Source: a virus
IMG/VR virus record: IMGVR_UViG_3300048548_000653
Coordinates: 1 to 64,000 of that record
Length of the DNA: 64,000 bases
Direction: 5' to 3' (one strand)
Each line of letters begins with the position of its first letter. Positions within the stretch are counted from its first letter, which is position 1. The notes beneath the pieces are model-generated. The model was not told where the DNA came from, made no database searches, and was given only the letters and a program-made list of their open reading frames with translations. Of this stretch, positions 3,570 to 55,869 are shown piece by piece. Made by a program: the position numbers and the translations under genes.

Positions 3570-4081
3570 TATTTTGCCCTTAATTTTACTTCAACAGGAA
3601 TACGGTCACCAACACGGTAATCATTAAACGTGTAAGCTGTACCGCCAAATCCATTCCACTGGAATCTAATTTTATAATCTTTTATAACAGTGACTTGTTC
3701 TCTTGTCATAACTTCAGTACACTGACGTTCGTTTCTATACCCTGTAACAACTTGTTGAGATTGTTTGTTATCTGCTGCAATAACTCCACCTAAAATTGCA
3801 CCTATAGCAGCACCCTTATCTTTTCCTGTGGCACCTTTTCCTAACAGTCCGCCAATAATCATACCGCCTAGTACATCACCGCCGCTTGCGCCGTTGCCTT
3901 GAGTTTGGCCATAAATCGGAACACTTACATCTTGACATTGTGTAGTAGGTGTATTTCTATAAACTGATTCGTATCTTGGATTAATTTGGGTTACAGTTGC
4001 ATAAACTGTTTCCGCTTGAGCTGATATTGCAGTCGTTGCGATTGTTGCAAGGATAGCAGTAGTTGTTAGTAATTTTTTCAT
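3569..4081 (-). CDS. secreted glycine-zipper 2TM protein
   Basis: Signal peptide; GGDVLGGMIIGGLLG...GAAIGAILGGVIA. Confidence 0.75.
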   Translation of the reverse strand: MKKLLTTTAILATIATTAISAQAETVYATVTQINPRYESVYRNTPTTQCQDVSVPIYGQTQGNGASGGDVLGGMIIGGLLGKGATGKDKGAAIGAILGGVIAADNKQSQQVVTGYRNERQCTEVMTREQVTVIKDYKIRFQWNGFGGTAYTFNDYRVGDRIPVEVKLRAK

Positions 4082-14552: not shown

Positions 14553-14906
14553 ATGGATTTAGGCAAGGTAATAGCAGAGTATGGATTTCCTATTGTTGCA
14601 ACAATGGGTATGGCCTACTTTATATTCTTTATTTGGAAATGGGTTACAAATGAAATTGACGTAGTTATTGGTCAAGCAATGGGTACACTAATTAAACTTG
14701 TTGACCGTGTGCGTATGCTAGACAATGATCTTATCCGTTTAAACAGTAAACTAAGTATGGTTTTAGAATATCGTGCAAAACTTAATCCTCAACGTCAAGA
14801 CGAGTTACAACGTTTAGTTGATGAATACAAAACCCAAAGCAATGATTTTGATTCAGGTGGCAACAAAGAAACTAAAGAGCCGTTAAAAAAGAGAACGGCA
14901 AGGTGA
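14553..14906 (+). CDS. GFPI-type membrane plus coiled-coil protein, paralog 2
   Basis: YGFPIVA TM segment; LVDRVRMLDNDL. Confidence 0.7.
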   Translation: MDLGKVIAEYGFPIVATMGMAYFIFFIWKWVTNEIDVVIGQAMGTLIKLVDRVRMLDNDLIRLNSKLSMVLEYRAKLNPQRQDELQRLVDEYKTQSNDFDSGGNKETKEPLKKRTAR

Positions 14907-16146: not shown

Positions 16147-18192
16147 TTATTTACTTGTGGCCACAAAAACGCCATTCCAATCTGAAGGCAAGTCTTGTGT
16201 TTTCATATACTCGCATCGTTCAATCCACATATCATAATATTTTTCCATTCTATGGTCAAAATTAGTGTATATTGTTTTACATAAACGTATAGCTTCATCC
16301 CAGTCCTGTGCTTTATATGCAGTATGCATATCGGCGTGTCTACGTTGGGGAACAGACCAAGCAGGTGGACCGCCATCGAGTACTGTATATATACTAAGTC
16401 CTACACTTTTGCCTTTGACTTGCAAGTCATCTACTTTGAGATAGAAGAAATCGTCTTTTGTTTGCTCGTATGTAGATTCTCCAACAAGTAGTAGACATCC
16501 GTACTCTTTACACTTGCTTTCTACTCTTGCTGCGGTGCTGACAGCGTCTCCAAGGACATCATATGAATGACGTTTAGTACTTCCCATTTCACCAAGGTAA
16601 CCCAACCCTGTGTTGATACCAGCACCCATACCAACAGCAGGACGACCATCAGGTATAATAACTTTTTCATTAAATTTTTCCACTGCTTTAAGCATATCTA
16701 AGCCACACTGTACTGCTGAACGAGCGTGGTTAGGATCATCTATAGGCGCATTGTGTATGTGCATACTTGCATCGCCTATGTACTTGATAATCATTCCATC
16801 CATATCTAAAACAGGTTGTGTAATACTGTCCATATAGCCATTCATAATTTTAGTAAGACCTTTAACATCATCACCAAAAGATTCACCTAGTGGTGTAAAT
16901 CCACGCAAATCACTGAACACTATACTAACTTCTTTTTTCATTCCTTCTTTGATTAAAGCAGGATTTTCTTGTAACATACGCACAACTGTAGGAGATGCAT
17001 ATCCAGCAAACTGTTTTTTGATAGCGTTCTTTTGTAAAAACTCGTCAACAAACTTTAATACATAACGTATTAATCCTACAAGAATTAAAAATGCAGCAGG
17101 TAAAGCACCGTCTACGAGCAAGGCATACTGTGCAAAAATATAGTTGCTACCATAAATGCTGCCGCCAACTGCAAGCACAAAAAAGGCTATACCTACATAT
17201 GTCCATCGTGCGATTAAAATTAGTACTATACCTACTGCTATAAAGGCGGCTAACTCTGCCCACTGTTCTGCGTCTGGATGTCTGCTAATATTTGATTGAT
17301 TAAACACTGTTCCTAGCATTGCTGCTTGTACTTCGTGTGGAAATACGCTGCCTGCTGCTGTTGCTAGTGGCTGTGTAAGCCCTGCTGCTGTTGGTCCTAC
17401 AAACACTATACCGCCAGCAAAGTCATCTGGTAAGTCTACTGCGCTCACGCTTTTGCTGCGTTGGCTCCAGTCTATCCACACTTCGCCTGTAGGTGATGTT
17501 TGTATTATACCAAACTGCGGTATGCGTAGTTTGTCTACACCCATAGGTGATAGTTTGATTTGGAACGAAGGATCACCTGCTAGAACACGTAGCACTTCCA
17601 TTGTAACATTTGGATACAATGTGCCGCCGCTTTCAACCACTAAAGGTATTCGTCTTGTTACGCCGTCTACTTCTGCCCAACTGTTGGTTATTCCACTGCC
17701 TACTGCCGAGAATTCCACATCAGGTACATTAGCAATAATACCAGGAACACTAGGAATGGTACCAATATAATCGCTGTTAACAATAGTAGCACCAGGATTG
17801 ATCGCTTCATTCTTATTCTCCTCTGCACCCAACATTGTAACGATAACAGGCAATTGCTGCATAGTTAAGGCTAATGTAGCATCTTCACCTGATCTGTCTG
17901 TTTCCGACATCAACACATTGAACACCACTAGTCCAGCGCCTCTGGCATATAAATCCTCTATAAGGCTACCATAATCACCTCTCGGCCACGGCCATTGTCC
18001 GTATGCCTCTAAACTTGGTTCATCGATGTTCACTGTGTAAATGTTGTTTTCAACAGGTTGTTGATTTACAATAAGTGTGTCAAAGTATCGTAGTTTAAGA
18101 CTTTCTAAAAATGGTGGATTACTTTGCATTACCCACGCAAGAATGCCCAAAACTATAATGCTCCATATTGGGGAAAATATTAGTTTTTTCAT
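16147..18192 (-). CDS. CHASE2-domain class III adenylate/guanylate cyclase
   Basis: GQWPWPR, DGVTRRIPL, TM bundle, FSDLRGFT, KYIGDA, GAGINTG, YDVLGDAVSTAARVE, VKGK. Confidence 0.92.
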   Translation of the reverse strand: MKKLIFSPIWSIIVLGILAWVMQSNPPFLESLKLRYFDTLIVNQQPVENNIYTVNIDEPSLEAYGQWPWPRGDYGSLIEDLYARGAGLVVFNVLMSETDRSGEDATLALTMQQLPVIVTMLGAEENKNEAINPGATIVNSDYIGTIPSVPGIIANVPDVEFSAVGSGITNSWAEVDGVTRRIPLVVESGGTLYPNVTMEVLRVLAGDPSFQIKLSPMGVDKLRIPQFGIIQTSPTGEVWIDWSQRSKSVSAVDLPDDFAGGIVFVGPTAAGLTQPLATAAGSVFPHEVQAAMLGTVFNQSNISRHPDAEQWAELAAFIAVGIVLILIARWTYVGIAFFVLAVGGSIYGSNYIFAQYALLVDGALPAAFLILVGLIRYVLKFVDEFLQKNAIKKQFAGYASPTVVRMLQENPALIKEGMKKEVSIVFSDLRGFTPLGESFGDDVKGLTKIMNGYMDSITQPVLDMDGMIIKYIGDASMHIHNAPIDDPNHARSAVQCGLDMLKAVEKFNEKVIIPDGRPAVGMGAGINTGLGYLGEMGSTKRHSYDVLGDAVSTAARVESKCKEYGCLLLVGESTYEQTKDDFFYLKVDDLQVKGKSVGLSIYTVLDGGPPAWSVPQRRHADMHTAYKAQDWDEAIRLCKTIYTNFDHRMEKYYDMWIERCEYMKTQDLPSDWNGVFVATSK

Positions 18193-52791: not shown

Positions 52792-53676
52792 TTAGCCGTT
52801 GATTAAGTTAAACTGATTCTTCAACTGTGCAACTACCGCTTGCCTAGTAATGCCCATCCTTTCAGCTATCTCATTATTAGATAGATTTGCGTGATAAAAG
52901 TCAAGTAATTGTTTTAATCTTTCTTCTGTCCAACCCTTCCTTTTGTTCATATAGTCACGGTGTTCCTTATTATATTTCGCTCTTAAAACAGGATCTTTCA
53001 TACGCTCTCTTCGCTGTTTAGCTCTGTGTATTGGATCACCAGTCAACCCGTGCTTGTAATTAGCATTACCAAATCCGCTACGATTTTTGCTGTAATTTGC
53101 TTTAGTTTCTTCGCTATGACGGAACCCAAGACCGCCATTTAATTTTGCACGTGACGCCACTATTTTTTCAATAGTTTCTTTTGGTTGCTTTTTACCTAGC
53201 AAATGTGGAACTAATTCGCCGCTTGCAAACATACGTTTTTTTGTTTCGCTTTGTCTTTTGTTCATTTCAGCTGTAGGCTTCCAGCCTTTCCTACGTGTAG
53301 CCCACTCGTTTTTCATCCATTGACGTTTAGCTTCTCTTTGTTCCTCTGTCAATTTTCTGCCATACATATGATTATTAGGTCCTGATTGATCTATGTATCT
53401 TGGATCGCCTATTCCAACATTGTAATATCTATTCCAACATCTTTTTTTCCTGTTCTTTAGATATGTGTGCTCTACAAATGCTATTTCTTCTTTAGTGCCT
53501 GTAAAAATAATTCTACGTCTAAATCCTTGAGGAATGTTATCCTTTGTAAAACTCTCCATCAACGTAGATGAATGAGTATAACTATTGTCTGGACTGCCTT
53601 GATGCTTTCCTATGTAATACATTTTGTTTTTTGCATCATACCAAATGTAAACAAAGCCGTCATCCGTGTTTTTCAT
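52792..53676 (-). CDS. free-standing GIY-YIG (Seg-like) homing endonuclease with NUMOD3-like repeats and C-terminal HTH
   Basis: GFVYIW...YYIGKH, FRRRI, E, YYN; MYGRKLTEE, HSEETK; SNNEIAERMGITRQAV. Confidence 0.85.
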   Translation of the reverse strand: MKNTDDGFVYIWYDAKNKMYYIGKHQGSPDNSYTHSSTLMESFTKDNIPQGFRRRIIFTGTKEEIAFVEHTYLKNRKKRCWNRYYNVGIGDPRYIDQSGPNNHMYGRKLTEEQREAKRQWMKNEWATRRKGWKPTAEMNKRQSETKKRMFASGELVPHLLGKKQPKETIEKIVASRAKLNGGLGFRHSEETKANYSKNRSGFGNANYKHGLTGDPIHRAKQRRERMKDPVLRAKYNKEHRDYMNKRKGWTEERLKQLLDFYHANLSNNEIAERMGITRQAVVAQLKNQFNLING

Positions 53677-54343
53677 AATACTGCCTGCATCTATTCCACC
53701 ACTCTTGTTCCCACTCTGCGAACTCGTCTGGCCACAAATCAAACTGCTGATACTCCAAGCCTCTACTGCACATAAAAATGTGTCCTTCACGTATGTCTGT
53801 GCCGTGTACTTCGTTGTGCCCTAATGCATATGCTGTAAGCTGTAAATAATAATCCTCTACCCATTCAGGCTTTTTGGGTTTATTGGTTTGCTTAAAATCC
53901 ATAATACAAGGATTGCCTTTGTATTGTCCTACCAAGTCAGTAGTACCTGCATAAATGTTAGGAACATAAAGGGGTACTTCGCTTCCCCATATCTCATCTA
54001 CGTGTACCATTGCTTCATCACGTATGACACAAGCCATTTGATATGCTTGTTGTGCATAAGGATTACTACCTGCACTTTCTGTCCACACGCCGTTGTCAAC
54101 ATAGTCTTCAAGATACTTGTGCATACGTGTGCCTACGCCGCTGGCTTCGGTTACAATCTCTTGTGCTTTTTGTTCACCTACACGTTTTTTCCACGCAATA
54201 AGATGACTCATATCTTTGGTACCGCTAAGAATAGTAGTTACGCTTGCTACTGGTGCACCACCTGGTGCAGCGTAACGGCGTTTGCCATTTACTTCTACAC
54301 GTTTTAATTTTTCGTATGTATACTTAGGTTTGATTAATGTCAT
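53660..54343 (-). CDS. PD-(D/E)xK RecB-like exonuclease
   Basis: SVTTIL, GTRMH, YAGTTDL, DFKQ, QLTAYA. Confidence 0.88.
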   Translation of the reverse strand: MTLIKPKYTYEKLKRVEVNGKRRYAAPGGAPVASVTTILSGTKDMSHLIAWKKRVGEQKAQEIVTEASGVGTRMHKYLEDYVDNGVWTESAGSNPYAQQAYQMACVIRDEAMVHVDEIWGSEVPLYVPNIYAGTTDLVGQYKGNPCIMDFKQTNKPKKPEWVEDYYLQLTAYALGHNEVHGTDIREGHIFMCSRGLEYQQFDLWPDEFAEWEQEWWNRCRQYYEKHG

Positions 54344-54357
54344 ACGTTATGATAACA

Positions 54358-54654
54358 TTAAAGATCGGATAAGTCAACGGCTCGTTTTGCCATTTTTCCT
54401 ACACTGTCTCCATCAGCACCGCCTTTTGGTGCTTTGTCAACGAAACTTACTTCTTCCTGTGTGTAGTGTCCAATTAGTCCTTTGATTCTTTCGTCTGCTT
54501 GGTAAGCTGCATCAAATGTTTCATAGTTAAACTGTGGAACTTCATTGTTGTCCATCATTTTGTCTAAATCTTCAAATGAAATAGACTGGACACCTTCTGA
54601 CTTCAATAGTCGAAGTAATCGATAAAGATTGTCGCTGTTTACTTCTTCAGTTAC
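54358..54654 (-). CDS. ORF lacking a good start, probably reached by -1 frameshift from the upstream gene
   Basis: Open from the slippery site (VTEEVNSDNLYRLL...) to TAA at 54358; only an SD-less TTG near the start. Confidence 0.6.
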   Translation of the reverse strand, partial: VTEEVNSDNLYRLLRLLKSEGVQSISFEDLDKMMDNNEVPQFNYETFDAAYQADERIKGLIGHYTQEEVSFVDKAPKGGADGDSVGKMAKRAVDLSDL

Positions 54655-55835
54655 TTTTTTTTTGAAAGTGTACGTGCTAGTTTACGTGAGTCAACACTTT
54701 CACTCGGTGCTGCTCTACGATCGCCTCTCATAGCTTTTAATTTTGCAAGTGCTTGTGGATTTAATTTCAATACACCTGCATCAATCATCATTTTTACAGC
54801 CGGATCATCTAGCATAAATTCTGCAGGAACTTTGTTTCCATCTTTATCAAATGTCCAATATTGTTTACCTTTGATATTTTGTTTTGGTCCTGAACCAAAC
54901 TTATTTTGAATACTTTTTTGTAAATTTAGATCTGCAGGATCGTTGCTGTCCATTCCACCAAACTCGTCTAGTTCAACACTTTCACGTGTCTCTCTGCCTG
55001 CTGGTTCTTCGCCGCCTGCTGCTGCTGGTGCTGCTGCAAAATCATCATCTGCGGGTGGCACAACACCTGCTGCATCATCCATATCAACGGTTGGCTCTAA
55101 GCCTGCAGCCATATCGTCGCCGCCCATTGGAGGCTGCATTTCACCTTCGCCTGTCAACATCATAACACCACTACTCAGTGCGCCTCTAGTTGACTCTAAT
55201 GAAGCATAAAGTTCGTCCAAGCTTGCTTTGATTGTTTCAACATACTGGTTACTTTGATCTACGCCCATTTCGTCTCTAACAGCATCAGCAAGATCCAACA
55301 TTGATTCTGTTTTCATTTCTGCTGTATCTTCCATCCAACCTGTTACTCTGTCAACCATATCCTTAGCTGCCATAACAATCTCTGCTTGGTCTTCTGCACC
55401 TTCACGTACAACAGATTCTTTTGCTTCTGCATCTGCTTTTTTGTTACCAGCATCGACCATTGCTTTGATACCTTTAGACTTTTTGTCTTTGGCTGCTTTT
55501 TTCATTGGCTCTTTTTTGTCGCCATCTTTATCCAAATCAAGGAAATCTGGCTTTGCACCTTCTAGCATATCATCATCAATGTCACCACGTTCACTAATTT
55601 CAGCATTTAACACATCTAAAAATAATTTAGATTTTTGATACTCATCGCTTTCAACTACATTACTAAAACTTTCGTTCATTTCGATTTGACTTAGTCTTGT
55701 TCTAAGTTTGTTACGAGCATTATGTAATTGTGCTAGTGTAAAAGATTCTAATGCAATGCGTTTTCCGAAACGTTTTGCAAGGCTTTCGTTTAATTTTTTT
55801 GCTGTTACTGGTTTAGCGAACTCTGAAATATTCAT
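54651..55835 (-). CDS. acidic prohead-core/scaffold-like virion protein
   Basis: TAAATA promoter, repeated ES/LE motifs, KPDFLDLDKDGDKKEPMK, AEIVMAAKDMVD. Confidence 0.65.
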   Translation of the reverse strand: MNISEFAKPVTAKKLNESLAKRFGKRIALESFTLAQLHNARNKLRTRLSQIEMNESFSNVVESDEYQKSKLFLDVLNAEISERGDIDDDMLEGAKPDFLDLDKDGDKKEPMKKAAKDKKSKGIKAMVDAGNKKADAEAKESVVREGAEDQAEIVMAAKDMVDRVTGWMEDTAEMKTESMLDLADAVRDEMGVDQSNQYVETIKASLDELYASLESTRGALSSGVMMLTGEGEMQPPMGGDDMAAGLEPTVDMDDAAGVVPPADDDFAAAPAAAGGEEPAGRETRESVELDEFGGMDSNDPADLNLQKSIQNKFGSGPKQNIKGKQYWTFDKDGNKVPAEFMLDDPAVKMMIDAGVLKLNPQALAKLKAMRGDRRAAPSESVDSRKLARTLSKKK

Positions 55836-55869
55836 TGGTGATTTCCTATGTTATTAAAAGTATTTATCT

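What the first reader, a model, noticed from the sequence alone, without database searches (positions are those of the whole stretch)
54358..54670. Candidate programmed -1 ribosomal frameshift extending a prohead-core-like protein
Seen: the 394-aa gene ends TCA AAA AAA AAG TAA, so the classic A_AAA_AAG heptamer lies just before the stop. Eight nt downstream is a stem, GAAGTAA...TTACTTC. The -1 frame is open from that point (KKVTEEVNSDNLYRLLRLLKSEGV...) to 54358. It has stop codons just upstream and no ATG/GTG with an SD near its start. Known: A_AAA_AAG plus a 3' hairpin drives -1 frameshifting in dnaX and IS elements. Inference: two isoforms of about 394 and 490 aa are made at a fixed ratio, in a head-assembly gene rather than the usual tail chaperone. 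Transcriptional slippage on the A9 run would give the same product.
Basis: partly seen in the sequence, partly recalled or inferred. Interest (0 to 1): 0.75.

Follow-up and report, generated by a model that had tools for sequence, protein, structure and literature searches.

The report
Conserved -1 frameshift site, marine phage gene
A late gene of an abundant, uncultured marine T4-like phage ends in a run of nine A's where a one-base backward slip, kept in about 70 independent relatives, adds a 98-residue domain that has no start codon of its own, so one gene very probably makes a 394-residue and a 492-residue protein; the mechanism is a known one, seen here in a new gene family.

Summary
The minus-strand gene 55835..54651 (394 aa) ends TCA AAA AAA AAG TAA, and a 98-codon ORF follows in the -1 frame with no start codon.

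Comparative evidence for recoding is strong.
- Of 89 unique homologous junctions from IMG/VR, 71 lack an ATG. All 70 of these with upstream DNA have the extension in the -1 frame, with an in-phase A_AAA_AAN heptamer in the overlap.
- The other 18 have their own SD and ATG, have lost the A-run, and lie in all three relative frames.
- dN/dS is about 0.1 from the first codon after the A-run.
- No A8 or A10 DNA variant and no in-frame fusion was found.

A head-assembly role is unproven. There is only a conserved late-promoter-like GATAAATA and a weak PHROG "virion structural protein" match.

Ribosomal frameshifting versus transcriptional slippage stays open. A sub-lineage with only six A's plus a conserved 3' stem-loop argues that ribosomal -1 frameshifting suffices. 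The strict A9 elsewhere, preserved even in another phase, suggests transcriptional slippage may contribute.

I put either kind of recoding at about 0.9. It is a new member of a known kind. Earlier notes of this scan report A9 sites in other late genes of marine T4-like phages, and one may be this same family.

The parts
55861..55868 (-). GATAAATA, a T4-type late-promoter-like motif (NATAAATA) 33 nt upstream of the ATG
   Evidence: Read directly. A [G/T]ATAAATA motif lies upstream of the homologous start in 53 of 58 unique loci, 32-49 nt from the ATG in 49 of them. That it acts as a late promoter is inferred from general knowledge of T4-like phages.
55843..55847 (-). Shine-Dalgarno-like AGGAA before the ATG of the main gene
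   Evidence: AGGAA(G) is kept at the same distance in the homologous loci.
54651..55835 (-). Main ORF, 394 aa plus TAA. It has a helical N-domain, a disordered stretch carrying a DLDKDGDKKEP motif, a long helical hairpin (residues 144-228), an acidic disordered region and a C-terminal helix ending LSKKK.
   Evidence: at least 3,994 homologues, all unnamed; AlphaFold mean pLDDT 68. PHROG 14154 at 1e-12. No Pfam match. No PDB sequence match.
54696..54971 (-). Inserted module of about 90 aa (residues about 289-380, DEFGGMDS...LKAMRG). It is absent from most homologues and sits at another position in some.
   Evidence: P0007, P0008, P0010 and P0096 carry it after KDKK, near residue 120. L001-L004 lack it; a small folded unit spanning residues 301-375.
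54655..54663 (-). A9 run, the only homopolymer of 9 or more in the 76,977-nt record
   Evidence: A9 is present in 48 of 54 unique slip-type junctions. The exact motif CTTTC-A9-GTAAC gives 60 IMG/VR hits, 56 of them next to the extension, and there are no A8 or A10 variants next to it.
54654..54660 (-). Slippery heptamer A_AAA_AAG, in phase with the main ORF (K393 AAA, K394 AAG)
   Evidence: An in-phase A_AAA_AAN heptamer is present in all 70 slip-type junctions that have upstream sequence. This includes the sub-lineage with only six or seven A's.
54651..54653 (-). 0-frame stop TAA directly after the heptamer
   Evidence: The stop directly follows the heptamer in about 30 of 54 unique junctions and lies 1-12 codons later in the rest.
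54358..54654 (-). -1-frame extension: 98 codons (VTEEVNSD...AVDLSDL) plus TAA. It comprises a winged-helix-like domain, a disordered linker and a near-invariant C-terminal V..MAKRA motif. The fused product is 492 aa.
   Evidence: 45-sequence alignment; M90, A91 and A94 invariant. (pLDDT 70; fold H-E-H-H-H-E-E). (best matches are winged-helix domains of MCM4, Rpa2 and cullins, E 0.03-0.3, weak). dN/dS is 0.03-0.22 over the whole extension and 0.05-0.28 over the first 20 codons.
54612..54645 (-).
   Evidence: z -0.38; the stem is not in the minimum-energy fold. (no common structure across 54 junctions). (dS in the first 20 codons is as high as in the rest of the extension).

Best explanation
The site is a programmed -1 recoding site at the 3' end of a late phage gene.

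Most ribosomes decode ...L S K K K and stop at TAA, giving the 394-aa protein. A fraction slip back one base while AAA and AAG occupy the P and A sites of A_AAA_AAG (54654-54660). They continue with GTA (Val) in the -1 frame and make a 492-aa protein. That protein carries an extra winged-helix-like domain, a flexible linker and a conserved C-terminal V..MAKRA peptide.

I take ribosomal -1 frameshifting on the heptamer to be the mechanism common to the family. In the window's own lineage there is no conserved 3' stimulator, so the efficiency is probably modest. RNA-polymerase slippage on the A9 run may add to it and gives the identical product.

Shown: the sequence features, their conservation, the frame relationship, the lack of a start codon, and selection on the -1 ORF.
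Inferred: that the slip occurs, its rate, and which machine slips.

My odds are about 0.9 for recoding of either kind. The confidence given below is for the ribosomal mechanism being the main one.
For: 1. Frame and heptamer. Of 89 unique junctions, 71 lack an ATG at the start of the extension. All 70 of these with upstream sequence have the extension in the -1 frame, with an in-phase A_AAA_AAN heptamer inside the short overlap of 10-130 nt. In L017, L043, L056 and L073 the -1 frame opens only 10 nt before the stop, so the shift must occur within the A-run.
2. Anticorrelation with a start codon. The 18 junctions with their own SD and ATG (TAATG, or TAAGGATACAAnATG) have no A-run; the main gene ends AGT AAG AAG, AGC AGA AAG and the like. 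They lie in all three relative frames (4 in -1, 6 in +1, 8 in the same frame), as independent genes should.
3. Selection on the -1 ORF. dN/dS in the -1 ORF is 0.03-0.22, and 0.05-0.28 in the first 20 codons after the A-run. The TTG at 54606 that gene callers use is CTT in L001 and L002.
4. A minimal-heptamer sub-lineage. Ten contigs (L085-L094, 81-100% aa identity) keep only GGA AAA AAG, or TCA AAA AAG, that is six or seven A's, but keep it in phase. The next 66 nt are almost invariant (dS 0.22 against 1.38 for the whole extension). They can form a 21-bp imperfect stem-loop starting right after the heptamer, with one compensatory C-G to U-A change made by two synonymous substitutions.
5. The DNA really is A9. 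Fourteen DNA runs from 13 studies hold 98-100% of the sampled words of this 2.2-kb stretch. Fifty-six independent IMG/VR contigs carry CTTTC-A9-GTAAC next to the extension, and none carries A8 or A10 there.
6. Published efficiency. A_AAA_AAG alone gave 14-16% frameshifting in vitro (bioRxiv 10.1101/2025.10.02.679949, read).
Against: - There is no direct evidence of either product.
- In the window's lineage there is no conserved 3' structure and no upstream SD-like element.
- The strict conservation of nine A's goes beyond what a heptamer needs. Three junctions (L029, L056, L061; TCG or TCT followed by AAA AAA AAA G) keep A9 in a different phase, which looks like selection on run length, the hallmark of transcriptional slippage.
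- The covariation support for the stem-loop in the six-A sub-lineage is thin: one pair, six distinct sequences, and 26 of 500 shuffles reach the observed score.
- The hosts' tRNA-Lys modification and frameshift propensity are unknown.
Confidence: 0.55

Rival explanations
1. Transcriptional slippage is the main mechanism in the A9 lineages, including this window. RNA polymerase stutters on the nine-A template run and inserts one extra A in a fraction of transcripts. This puts the extension in frame and yields the same 492-aa product, as in Thermus thermophilus dnaX.
For: - A9 is kept in 48 of 54 unique slip-type junctions.
- When the Ser codon is TCG or TCT, three junctions (L029, L056, L061) read AAA AAA AAA, restoring nine A's in another phase.
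- There is no conserved 3' structure and no synonymous-site constraint downstream in this lineage.
- This is the only run of 9 or more in the record.
- Earlier unchecked notes of this scan report A9 sites in several other late genes of marine T4-like phages.
Against: - The sub-lineage with six or seven A's keeps the arrangement with only an in-phase heptamer plus a conserved stem-loop. Runs that short slip poorly in transcription (general knowledge).
- The A8 junctions (L017, L043, L073) also keep the in-phase heptamer.
- The only RNA-library contig across the run (X18, 54602-54752, depth 4) shows A9. Contigs drop minority variants, so this is uninformative.
Confidence: 0.33
2. The downstream ORF is a separate gene. 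It is translated by independent or coupled (re)initiation at a non-canonical codon near the A-run, or at the internal TTG at 54606, and no fusion protein is made.
For: - In 18 of 89 junctions the domain is a separate gene with its own ATG, at exactly the position of the A-run Lys codons (MKVSE... against KKVTE...). The domain can therefore work as a free polypeptide.
- Gene callers annotate an 82-aa ORF from the TTG.
- A few junctions read GTG just after the A-run (L024, L109, L112).
Against: - There is no ATG, GTG or TTG between the upstream -1 stop and the conserved N-terminal residues in the window or in most relatives. The codon after the run is usually GTA, GTC, GGC or GAC.
- The TTG at 54606 is not conserved and has no SD. 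The 19 codons before it are under purifying selection.
- Independent genes would not all lie in the -1 frame with an in-phase slippery heptamer (70 of 70).
Confidence: 0.04
3. It is an artefact or decay: a homopolymer sequencing error splitting one ordinary gene, or a pseudogenised fusion.
For: Homopolymers are error-prone on some platforms. A single extra A would fuse the two ORFs.
Against: - The same A9 stands in 56 independent IMG/VR contigs, and 14 read sets from 13 studies hold 98-100% of the stretch's sampled words.
- No A8 or A10 variant lies next to the extension.
- No in-frame fused protein was found among longer proteins, which is only weak evidence.
- Lineages with A6, A7, A8 and A10 runs all still need a -1 shift.
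- Both ORFs are under purifying selection.
Confidence: 0.01

Closest known systems
Escherichia coli dnaX (tau/gamma): -1 ribosomal frameshift at A_AAA_AAG
   Same: It uses the identical slippery heptamer in phase and makes two isoforms of one gene that share an N-terminal body. The six-A sub-lineage also has a stem-loop right after the heptamer.
   Different: In dnaX the shift truncates the protein; here it extends it by a folded domain. dnaX has an upstream SD-like stimulator and a strong 3' hairpin. The window has neither detectable and instead has the stop codon directly after the heptamer. The proteins are unrelated.
Thermus thermophilus dnaX: transcriptional slippage on a run of nine A's (from my own knowledge, Larsen et al. 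2000; also named in earlier scan notes)
   Same: It has an A9 run at the recoding point. Homologous genes in different lineages may use ribosomal or transcriptional slippage as alternatives.
   Different: No RNA heterogeneity has been shown here. The gene is a phage late gene of unknown function, not a replicase subunit.
Phage lambda G/GT tail assembly chaperone and its analogues in tailed phages (Xu, Hendrix and Duda 2004, cited in PMC8163748)
   Same: It is a late phage gene in which a -1 slip near the 3' end adds a C-terminal domain that has no start codon, giving a minor long form beside a major short form. The arrangement is conserved without sequence conservation across phages.
   Different: The gene family and genome position differ. 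Here the gene lies before a PD-(D/E)XK exonuclease and a tail-spike-like gene, not between the tail tube and tape measure genes. The slippery sequence differs (A_AAA_AAG or A9 against G_GGA_AAG). No chaperone role is indicated.
C-terminally extended capsid proteins made by -1 frameshifting (T7 gene 10A/10B; Lactobacillus phage A2 major head protein, Garcia et al. 2004, cited in PMC10885494)
   Same: These are late virion-associated genes with a frameshift close to the stop codon that produces a minor extended isoform.
   Different: The protein here is not a capsid-fold protein. It is predicted to be helical and disordered, and its presence in virions is untested.
Agrobacterium phage Atu_ph07 AUZ94856 (771 aa, PHROG 14154 'virion structural protein') and the following 128-aa ORF AUZ94855
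   Same: This is the only cultured-phage relative found. PHROG 14154 matches the main protein at 1e-12 over residues 109-298, and the fold match has E 2.8e-4. A small ORF follows whose model weakly resembles the extension (rank 34).
   Different: The two are separate genes with a 28-nt gap and their own start, and there is no A-run. The small ORF has no sequence similarity to the extension profile. Both are annotated as hypothetical.

Membership tests
Programmed -1 ribosomal frameshift cassette | Slippery heptamer X_XXY_YYZ in phase with the upstream ORF | tested here: met
   A_AAA_AAG lies at 54654-54660 in phase. An in-phase A_AAA_AAN heptamer is present in all 70 slip-type junctions that have upstream sequence.
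Programmed -1 ribosomal frameshift cassette | Downstream ORF in the -1 frame, without its own initiation signal, conserved and under purifying selection | tested here: met
   dN/dS is about 0.1 from the first codon after the run.
Programmed -1 ribosomal frameshift cassette | 3' stimulatory RNA structure 5-9 nt after the heptamer, or a 5' SD-like stimulator | tested here: not met
   In the window, z is -0.38 and -0.61. There is no common fold across 54 junctions (mean z -1.0). There is no synonymous constraint. A conserved stem-loop is seen only in the six-A sub-lineage. A stimulator is not strictly required for A_AAA_AAG.
Programmed -1 ribosomal frameshift cassette | Two protein products that share an N-terminus are observed | not testable with these tools
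   No proteomic data were available.
Transcriptional slippage site (Thermus dnaX type) | Homopolymer of about 9 or more A/T at the frame junction | tested here: met
   A9 lies at 54655-54663. A9 is present in 48 of 54 junctions, three of them in another phase.
Transcriptional slippage site (Thermus dnaX type) | Length heterogeneity of the run in RNA but not in DNA | tested here: inconclusive
   One RNA-library contig (X18, depth 4) spans the run and shows A9. Contigs drop minor variants. The raw DNA reads (X22) did not cover the site.
Lambda G/GT-type tail assembly chaperone | Position between the major tail/tube gene and the tape-measure gene; TAC family protein | tested here: not met
   The neighbours are small ORFs upstream and, downstream, a PD-(D/E)XK exonuclease (phrog_298, 4e-51), a homing endonuclease and a tail-spike-like protein. 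There is no tail-chaperone PHROG or Pfam match.
   No Pfam match for the protein or for 51 homologues. No PDB match for the profile. The only PHROG match is the generic 14154 'virion structural protein'. No head genes are adjacent. The cultured relatives Melnitz and HTVC008M lack the gene. The helical and acidic composition is compatible with such a role but not diagnostic.
Winged-helix domains (the extension) | H-strand-H-H-strand-strand topology with significant structural similarity to known winged-helix domains | tested here: inconclusive
   The model has pLDDT 70 and pTM 0.50 with a compatible topology. The best Foldseek matches are winged-helix domains of MCM4, Rpa2 and cullins, but with E 0.03-0.3 and TM about 0.45-0.5. 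The VIA libraries were unavailable.

The most novel reading that the evidence does not exclude
Within one gene family, three interchangeable ways of expressing the same C-terminal domain have evolved. Most lineages, including this window, would use RNA-polymerase slippage on a strictly kept A9 run. One lineage would use classical ribosomal -1 frameshifting on a minimal A_AAA_AAG plus a stem-loop. Several lineages encode the domain as a separate gene with SD and ATG. This would be a phage counterpart of the E. coli and Thermus dnaX alternatives. Together with the A9 sites that earlier scan notes report in other late genes, it would suggest that marine T4-like phages use A9 as a general, portable isoform switch.
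Probability: 0.3. Interest if true: 0.7.

Novelty: new member of a known kind. Interest (0 to 1): 0.5.

Why it matters
The gene family is very abundant in seawater. At least 3,994 homologues scored E 1e-5 or better in a capped search, and the window's own sequence is held by 14 read sets. Yet the family is unnamed, and standard annotation splits it into a 394-aa protein and a truncated 82-aa ORF called from a false TTG start, so the 492-aa isoform is missed everywhere.

The family is also a natural comparative series: A9, a minimal heptamer plus hairpin, and a separate gene. That series could be used to separate the requirements of ribosomal and transcriptional slippage in streamlined marine hosts, and to ask why the fused form is never made constitutive.

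For phage biology, it flags a late protein whose function probably depends on a sub-stoichiometric copy carrying a winged-helix-like domain and a conserved C-terminal docking peptide.

Tried and rejected
- BLASTN and TBLASTN of the region, the main protein and the extension against 50,697 phage records found no match. The nearest cultured phages, by another gene, are Methylophilales phage Melnitz and Pelagibacter phage HTVC008M. Profile searches find neither part in them.
- A search for in-frame fused long forms of the extension found none. This is weak evidence.
- RNA evidence: only Logan contigs of RNA libraries were available. One contig covers the run with A9. The raw-read DNA run barely touched the stretch. 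This cannot decide between the two slippage mechanisms.
- The downstream hairpin was rejected as a conserved element for the window's lineage.
- An upstream SD-like stimulator was rejected. Many relatives have TAGG(T) about 14 nt upstream, but it is a conserved Leu-Gly codon pair and is absent from the window (CTAGCACGT).
- TATAAATA as a genome-wide late promoter is not enriched in the window: 7 matches against 8.5 expected. The conserved upstream motif is GATAAATA.
- The Atu_ph07 downstream ORF was rejected as a homologue of the extension (hhalign probability 0.04).
- Pfam on 51 homologues gave nothing meaningful. The ESM Atlas gave only a DUF3008 lead, in 41% of one cluster, which I did not pursue.
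- Literature searches found no paper on this gene or site.
- Complex prediction and the search of protein representatives were not used, because the report does not rest on a binding claim.
Full report
**1. The observation**

All genes around the site lie on the minus strand. The ORF 55835..54651 encodes 394 aa and ends ...CTT TCA AAA AAA AAG TAA.
- The nine-A run occupies 54655-54663. It is the only homopolymer of 9 or more in the whole 76,977-nt virus record, which has 36.8% G+C.
- The heptamer A_AAA_AAG (54654-54660) is in phase with the ORF.
- The -1 frame is closed by a TAA 28 nt upstream of the stop. It is then open from 54681 to the TAA at 54358-54360 and reads T S T Y T F K K K V T E E V N S D N L Y R...
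- That stretch holds no ATG, GTG or TTG before the TTG at 54606.
- A slip on the heptamer would give 394 + 98 = 492 aa.
The 54 nt after the heptamer fold no better than shuffled sequence: -6.3 kcal/mol, z -0.38, with 74 of 200 shuffles at least as good. The minimum-energy fold does not use that stem.
- Six in-phase A_AAA_AAG heptamers occur in the record's 81 larger ORFs. Only this one lies at a gene end followed by a long open -1 frame.

**2. Is the downstream frame a real coding region?**

Yes. TBLASTN with the 99-aa -1 translation finds a homologous domain directly downstream of the homologue of the main gene in about 70 IMG/VR loci, at 29-93% identity.

A 45-sequence alignment shows a conserved domain followed by a variable linker and a near-invariant C-terminal V..MAKRA motif.

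Nei-Gojobori estimates on 14 pairs gave finite dN/dS for 13. The values are 0.03-0.22 over the whole extension and 0.05-0.28 over the first 20 codons after the A-run. Translation in that frame therefore begins at the A-run.

The TTG at 54606 is the start that gene callers and the ESM Atlas record use. It is CTT in L001 and L002 and has no SD.

**3. The comparative test of recoding**

I collected 89 unique junction sequences from IMG/VR and classified them.

*Junctions without a start codon.* Seventy-one have no ATG at the start of the extension. One of these is truncated upstream. In the other 70, the extension lies in the -1 frame relative to a main ORF of 200-450 codons, and an in-phase A_AAA_AAN heptamer lies inside the overlap. 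In L017, L043, L056 and L073 the -1 frame opens only 10 nt before the 0-frame stop, inside or at the A-run. That leaves no other place to change frame.

*Junctions with a start codon.* The remaining 18 have a clear start for the extension.
- The start is either TAATG or a conserved TAAGGATACAAnATG.
- They read M-K-(V/I)-S-(E/D) where the others read K-K-V-T-E.
- In all of them the A-run is gone; the main gene ends AGT AAG AAG TAA, AGC AGA AAG TAA, CGT AAG TAA and similar.
- Their relative frames are spread: 4 in -1, 6 in +1 and 8 in the same frame.

This complete anticorrelation between a start codon and a slippery run is what a functional recoding signal predicts, as is the frame being fixed only when the start is missing. 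Neither chance, independent initiation nor sequencing error predicts it.

Such homologues exist, but only as the complementary state.

**4. The DNA really has nine A's**
- The window's 2.2-kb stretch is held at 98-100% of sampled words by 14 DNA read sets from 13 studies. Some of these may be the source of the window.
- The exact motif CTTTC-A9-GTAAC occurs in 60 IMG/VR stretches, 56 of them next to the extension.
- The A8 version (7 hits) and the A10 version (1 hit) never lie next to the extension.
- No in-frame fused protein was found among longer proteins, which is weak evidence.

A constitutive fusion, one A away, is apparently not tolerated. This argues that both isoforms, or their ratio, matter.

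**5. Which machine slips?**

*For ribosomal -1 frameshifting:*
- Every junction keeps an in-phase heptamer.
- The sub-lineage L085-L094 (ten contigs, 81-100% aa identity) has only GGA AAA AAG TCG TAA, or TCA AAA AAG. That is six or seven A's, which is poor for polymerase slippage (general knowledge).
- In that sub-lineage the 66 nt after the heptamer are almost invariant. Between L085 and L092, dS is 0.22 in the first 20 codons against 1.38 over the whole extension.
- Those 66 nt can form a 21-bp imperfect stem-loop of -17 to -19 kcal/mol. It has one compensatory C-G to U-A pair made by two synonymous changes. Covariation support is thin: six distinct rows, and 26 of 500 shuffles reach the observed score.
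- A_AAA_AAG without stimulators gave 14-16% frameshifting in vitro (10.1101/2025.10.02.679949).

*For transcriptional slippage:*
- Forty-eight of 54 unique slip-type junctions have exactly nine A's.
- When the preceding Ser codon lacks a final A (TCG or TCT), three junctions read AAA AAA AAA G. This restores nine A's in another phase.
- The A9 lineages, including the window, show no conserved 3' structure. Mean z is -1.0 with heterogeneous folds, and the window's z is -0.6. They also show no synonymous constraint downstream.

*RNA data.* The single RNA-library contig across the site (X18, oligo-dT library, 54602-54752, depth 4) has A9. Contigs hide minority variants, and the raw DNA run did not cover the site, so this is uninformative.

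*My odds.* I lean towards ribosomal frameshifting as the common mechanism (0.55) and give transcriptional slippage as the main route in A9 lineages 0.33. Both give the same protein. Recoding of either kind is about 0.9.

The 0-frame stop directly follows the heptamer in about 30 of 54 junctions. Whether it acts as a stimulator is speculation.

**6. What the gene is**

*Main protein.*
Only JGI labels appear among the 120 listed: 'hypothetical protein', and 'uncharacterized protein YajQ (UPF0234 family)' for two. All twelve whose sequences were fetched contain the LSKKK motif, and ten end exactly in it.
- It has no Pfam match, alone or in 51 homologues, and no PDB sequence match.
- PHROG 14154 ("virion structural protein") matches at 1e-12 over residues 109-298. 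That family is the 771-aa hypothetical protein AUZ94856 of Agrobacterium phage Atu_ph07.
- The AlphaFold model (pLDDT 68) shows a helical N-domain, a disordered stretch with a DLDKDGDKKEP motif, a long helical hairpin (residues 144-228), an acidic disordered region and a short C-terminal helix.
- This is compatible with a scaffold-like or assembly protein but is not diagnostic.

*Expression.* A conserved [G/T]ATAAATA motif lies upstream of the start in 53 of 58 unique loci, 32-49 nt from the ATG in 49 of them. By general knowledge of T4-like phages it resembles a late promoter, which points to late expression.

*Extension.* It is modelled (pLDDT 70) as a small helix-strand domain. Its best but weak structural matches are winged-helix domains of MCM4, Rpa2 and cullins.

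*Phage and context.*
- By its adenylate-cyclase-like gene, the phage is related to Methylophilales phage Melnitz (51% aa) and Pelagibacter phage HTVC008M, both Kyanoviridae. Neither has this gene.
- The conserved context is main gene plus extension, then a PD-(D/E)XK exonuclease, then a tail-spike-like protein.
- It is not a head-gene cluster and not the tail-chaperone position.

**7. Comparison with known systems**

The site works like E. coli dnaX (same heptamer) or like Thermus dnaX (A9). In its biological logic it resembles lambda G/GT and the T7 10A/10B or phage A2 head-protein extensions: a late phage gene in which a slip near the stop adds a C-terminal domain to a minority of molecules.

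It is not a member of the tail-chaperone family, because both position and protein family fail the test. It meets the sequence-level criteria of a -1 frameshift cassette except for a stimulator in the window's lineage.

I found no paper describing this gene or site. Earlier notes of this scan are AI notes that I did not check. They report A9 recoding sites in several other late genes of marine T4-like phages, and one (e1-5392704, a 105-residue domain without a start) may be this same family on other DNA.

**8. Verdict**

A programmed -1 recoding event producing 394-aa and 492-aa isoforms is very likely. The hairpin and the head-assembly label are not supported, and the slippage mechanism is undecided. 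This is a new member of a known kind, of moderate interest. Its main value is as an abundant, mis-annotated family and as a natural series (A9, heptamer plus hairpin, separate gene) for studying recoding.

Noticed in passing
window 54696-54971 (residues about 289-380 of the main protein); proteins P0007, P0008, P0010, P0096: A module of about 90 aa (DEFGGMDS...DPAVKMMIDAGVLKLNP...LKAMRG) is inserted near the C-terminus here and in P0001 and P0006. It sits after the KDKK motif (near residue 120) in other homologues and is absent from most. It behaves like a mobile domain, and here it is flanked by the repeated motif (R)ESV(E/D).
   Followed up: partly
window 55861-55868 and the homologous loci L005-L083: A conserved [G/T]ATAAATA motif (T4-type late-promoter-like) lies upstream of the main gene's ATG in 53 of 58 unique loci, 32-49 nt from it in 49 of them. 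Exact TATAAATA is not enriched in the window (7 matches against 8.5 expected).
   Followed up: partly
L085-L094, about positions 1507-1572 (L089: 281-346): In the sub-lineage with only six or seven A's, the 66 nt after the heptamer form a nearly invariant island with a 21-bp imperfect stem-loop and one compensatory pair. This is a probable frameshift stimulator that the A9 lineages lack.
   Followed up: yes
L072 / L075, about positions 3830-3875: There are two tandem TCA-A9-G runs 15 nt apart. A -1 slip on the first meets a stop after two codons, so only the second leads into the extension.
   Followed up: no
window 14553-14906 (+ strand): A second in-phase A_AAA_AAG (TTA AAA AAG) lies at codon 111 of a 118-aa ORF, with the -1 frame open for 45 more codons. 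It may be chance.
   Followed up: no
window 52792-53790 and 53660-54343 (- strand): A GIY-YIG/NUMOD3 homing-endonuclease-like ORF with a C-terminal HTH follows the PD-(D/E)XK exonuclease gene. As listed, from a GTG start, it overlaps the exonuclease gene's 3' end by 131 nt, so its true start is probably further downstream.
   Followed up: no
window 16147-18192 (- strand): A 681-aa adenylate/guanylate-cyclase-domain protein is 51% identical to that of Methylophilales phage Melnitz and 34% identical to that of Pelagibacter phage HTVC008M. This places the phage among marine T4-like (Kyanoviridae) pelagimyophage relatives.
   Followed up: partly
MF403008.1 32108-34838 (L125 8109-10839): In Agrobacterium phage Atu_ph07, the 771-aa PHROG 14154 protein is followed after 28 nt by a 128-aa ORF with its own start. 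That ORF has a weak fold resemblance to the extension but no sequence similarity.
   Followed up: partly
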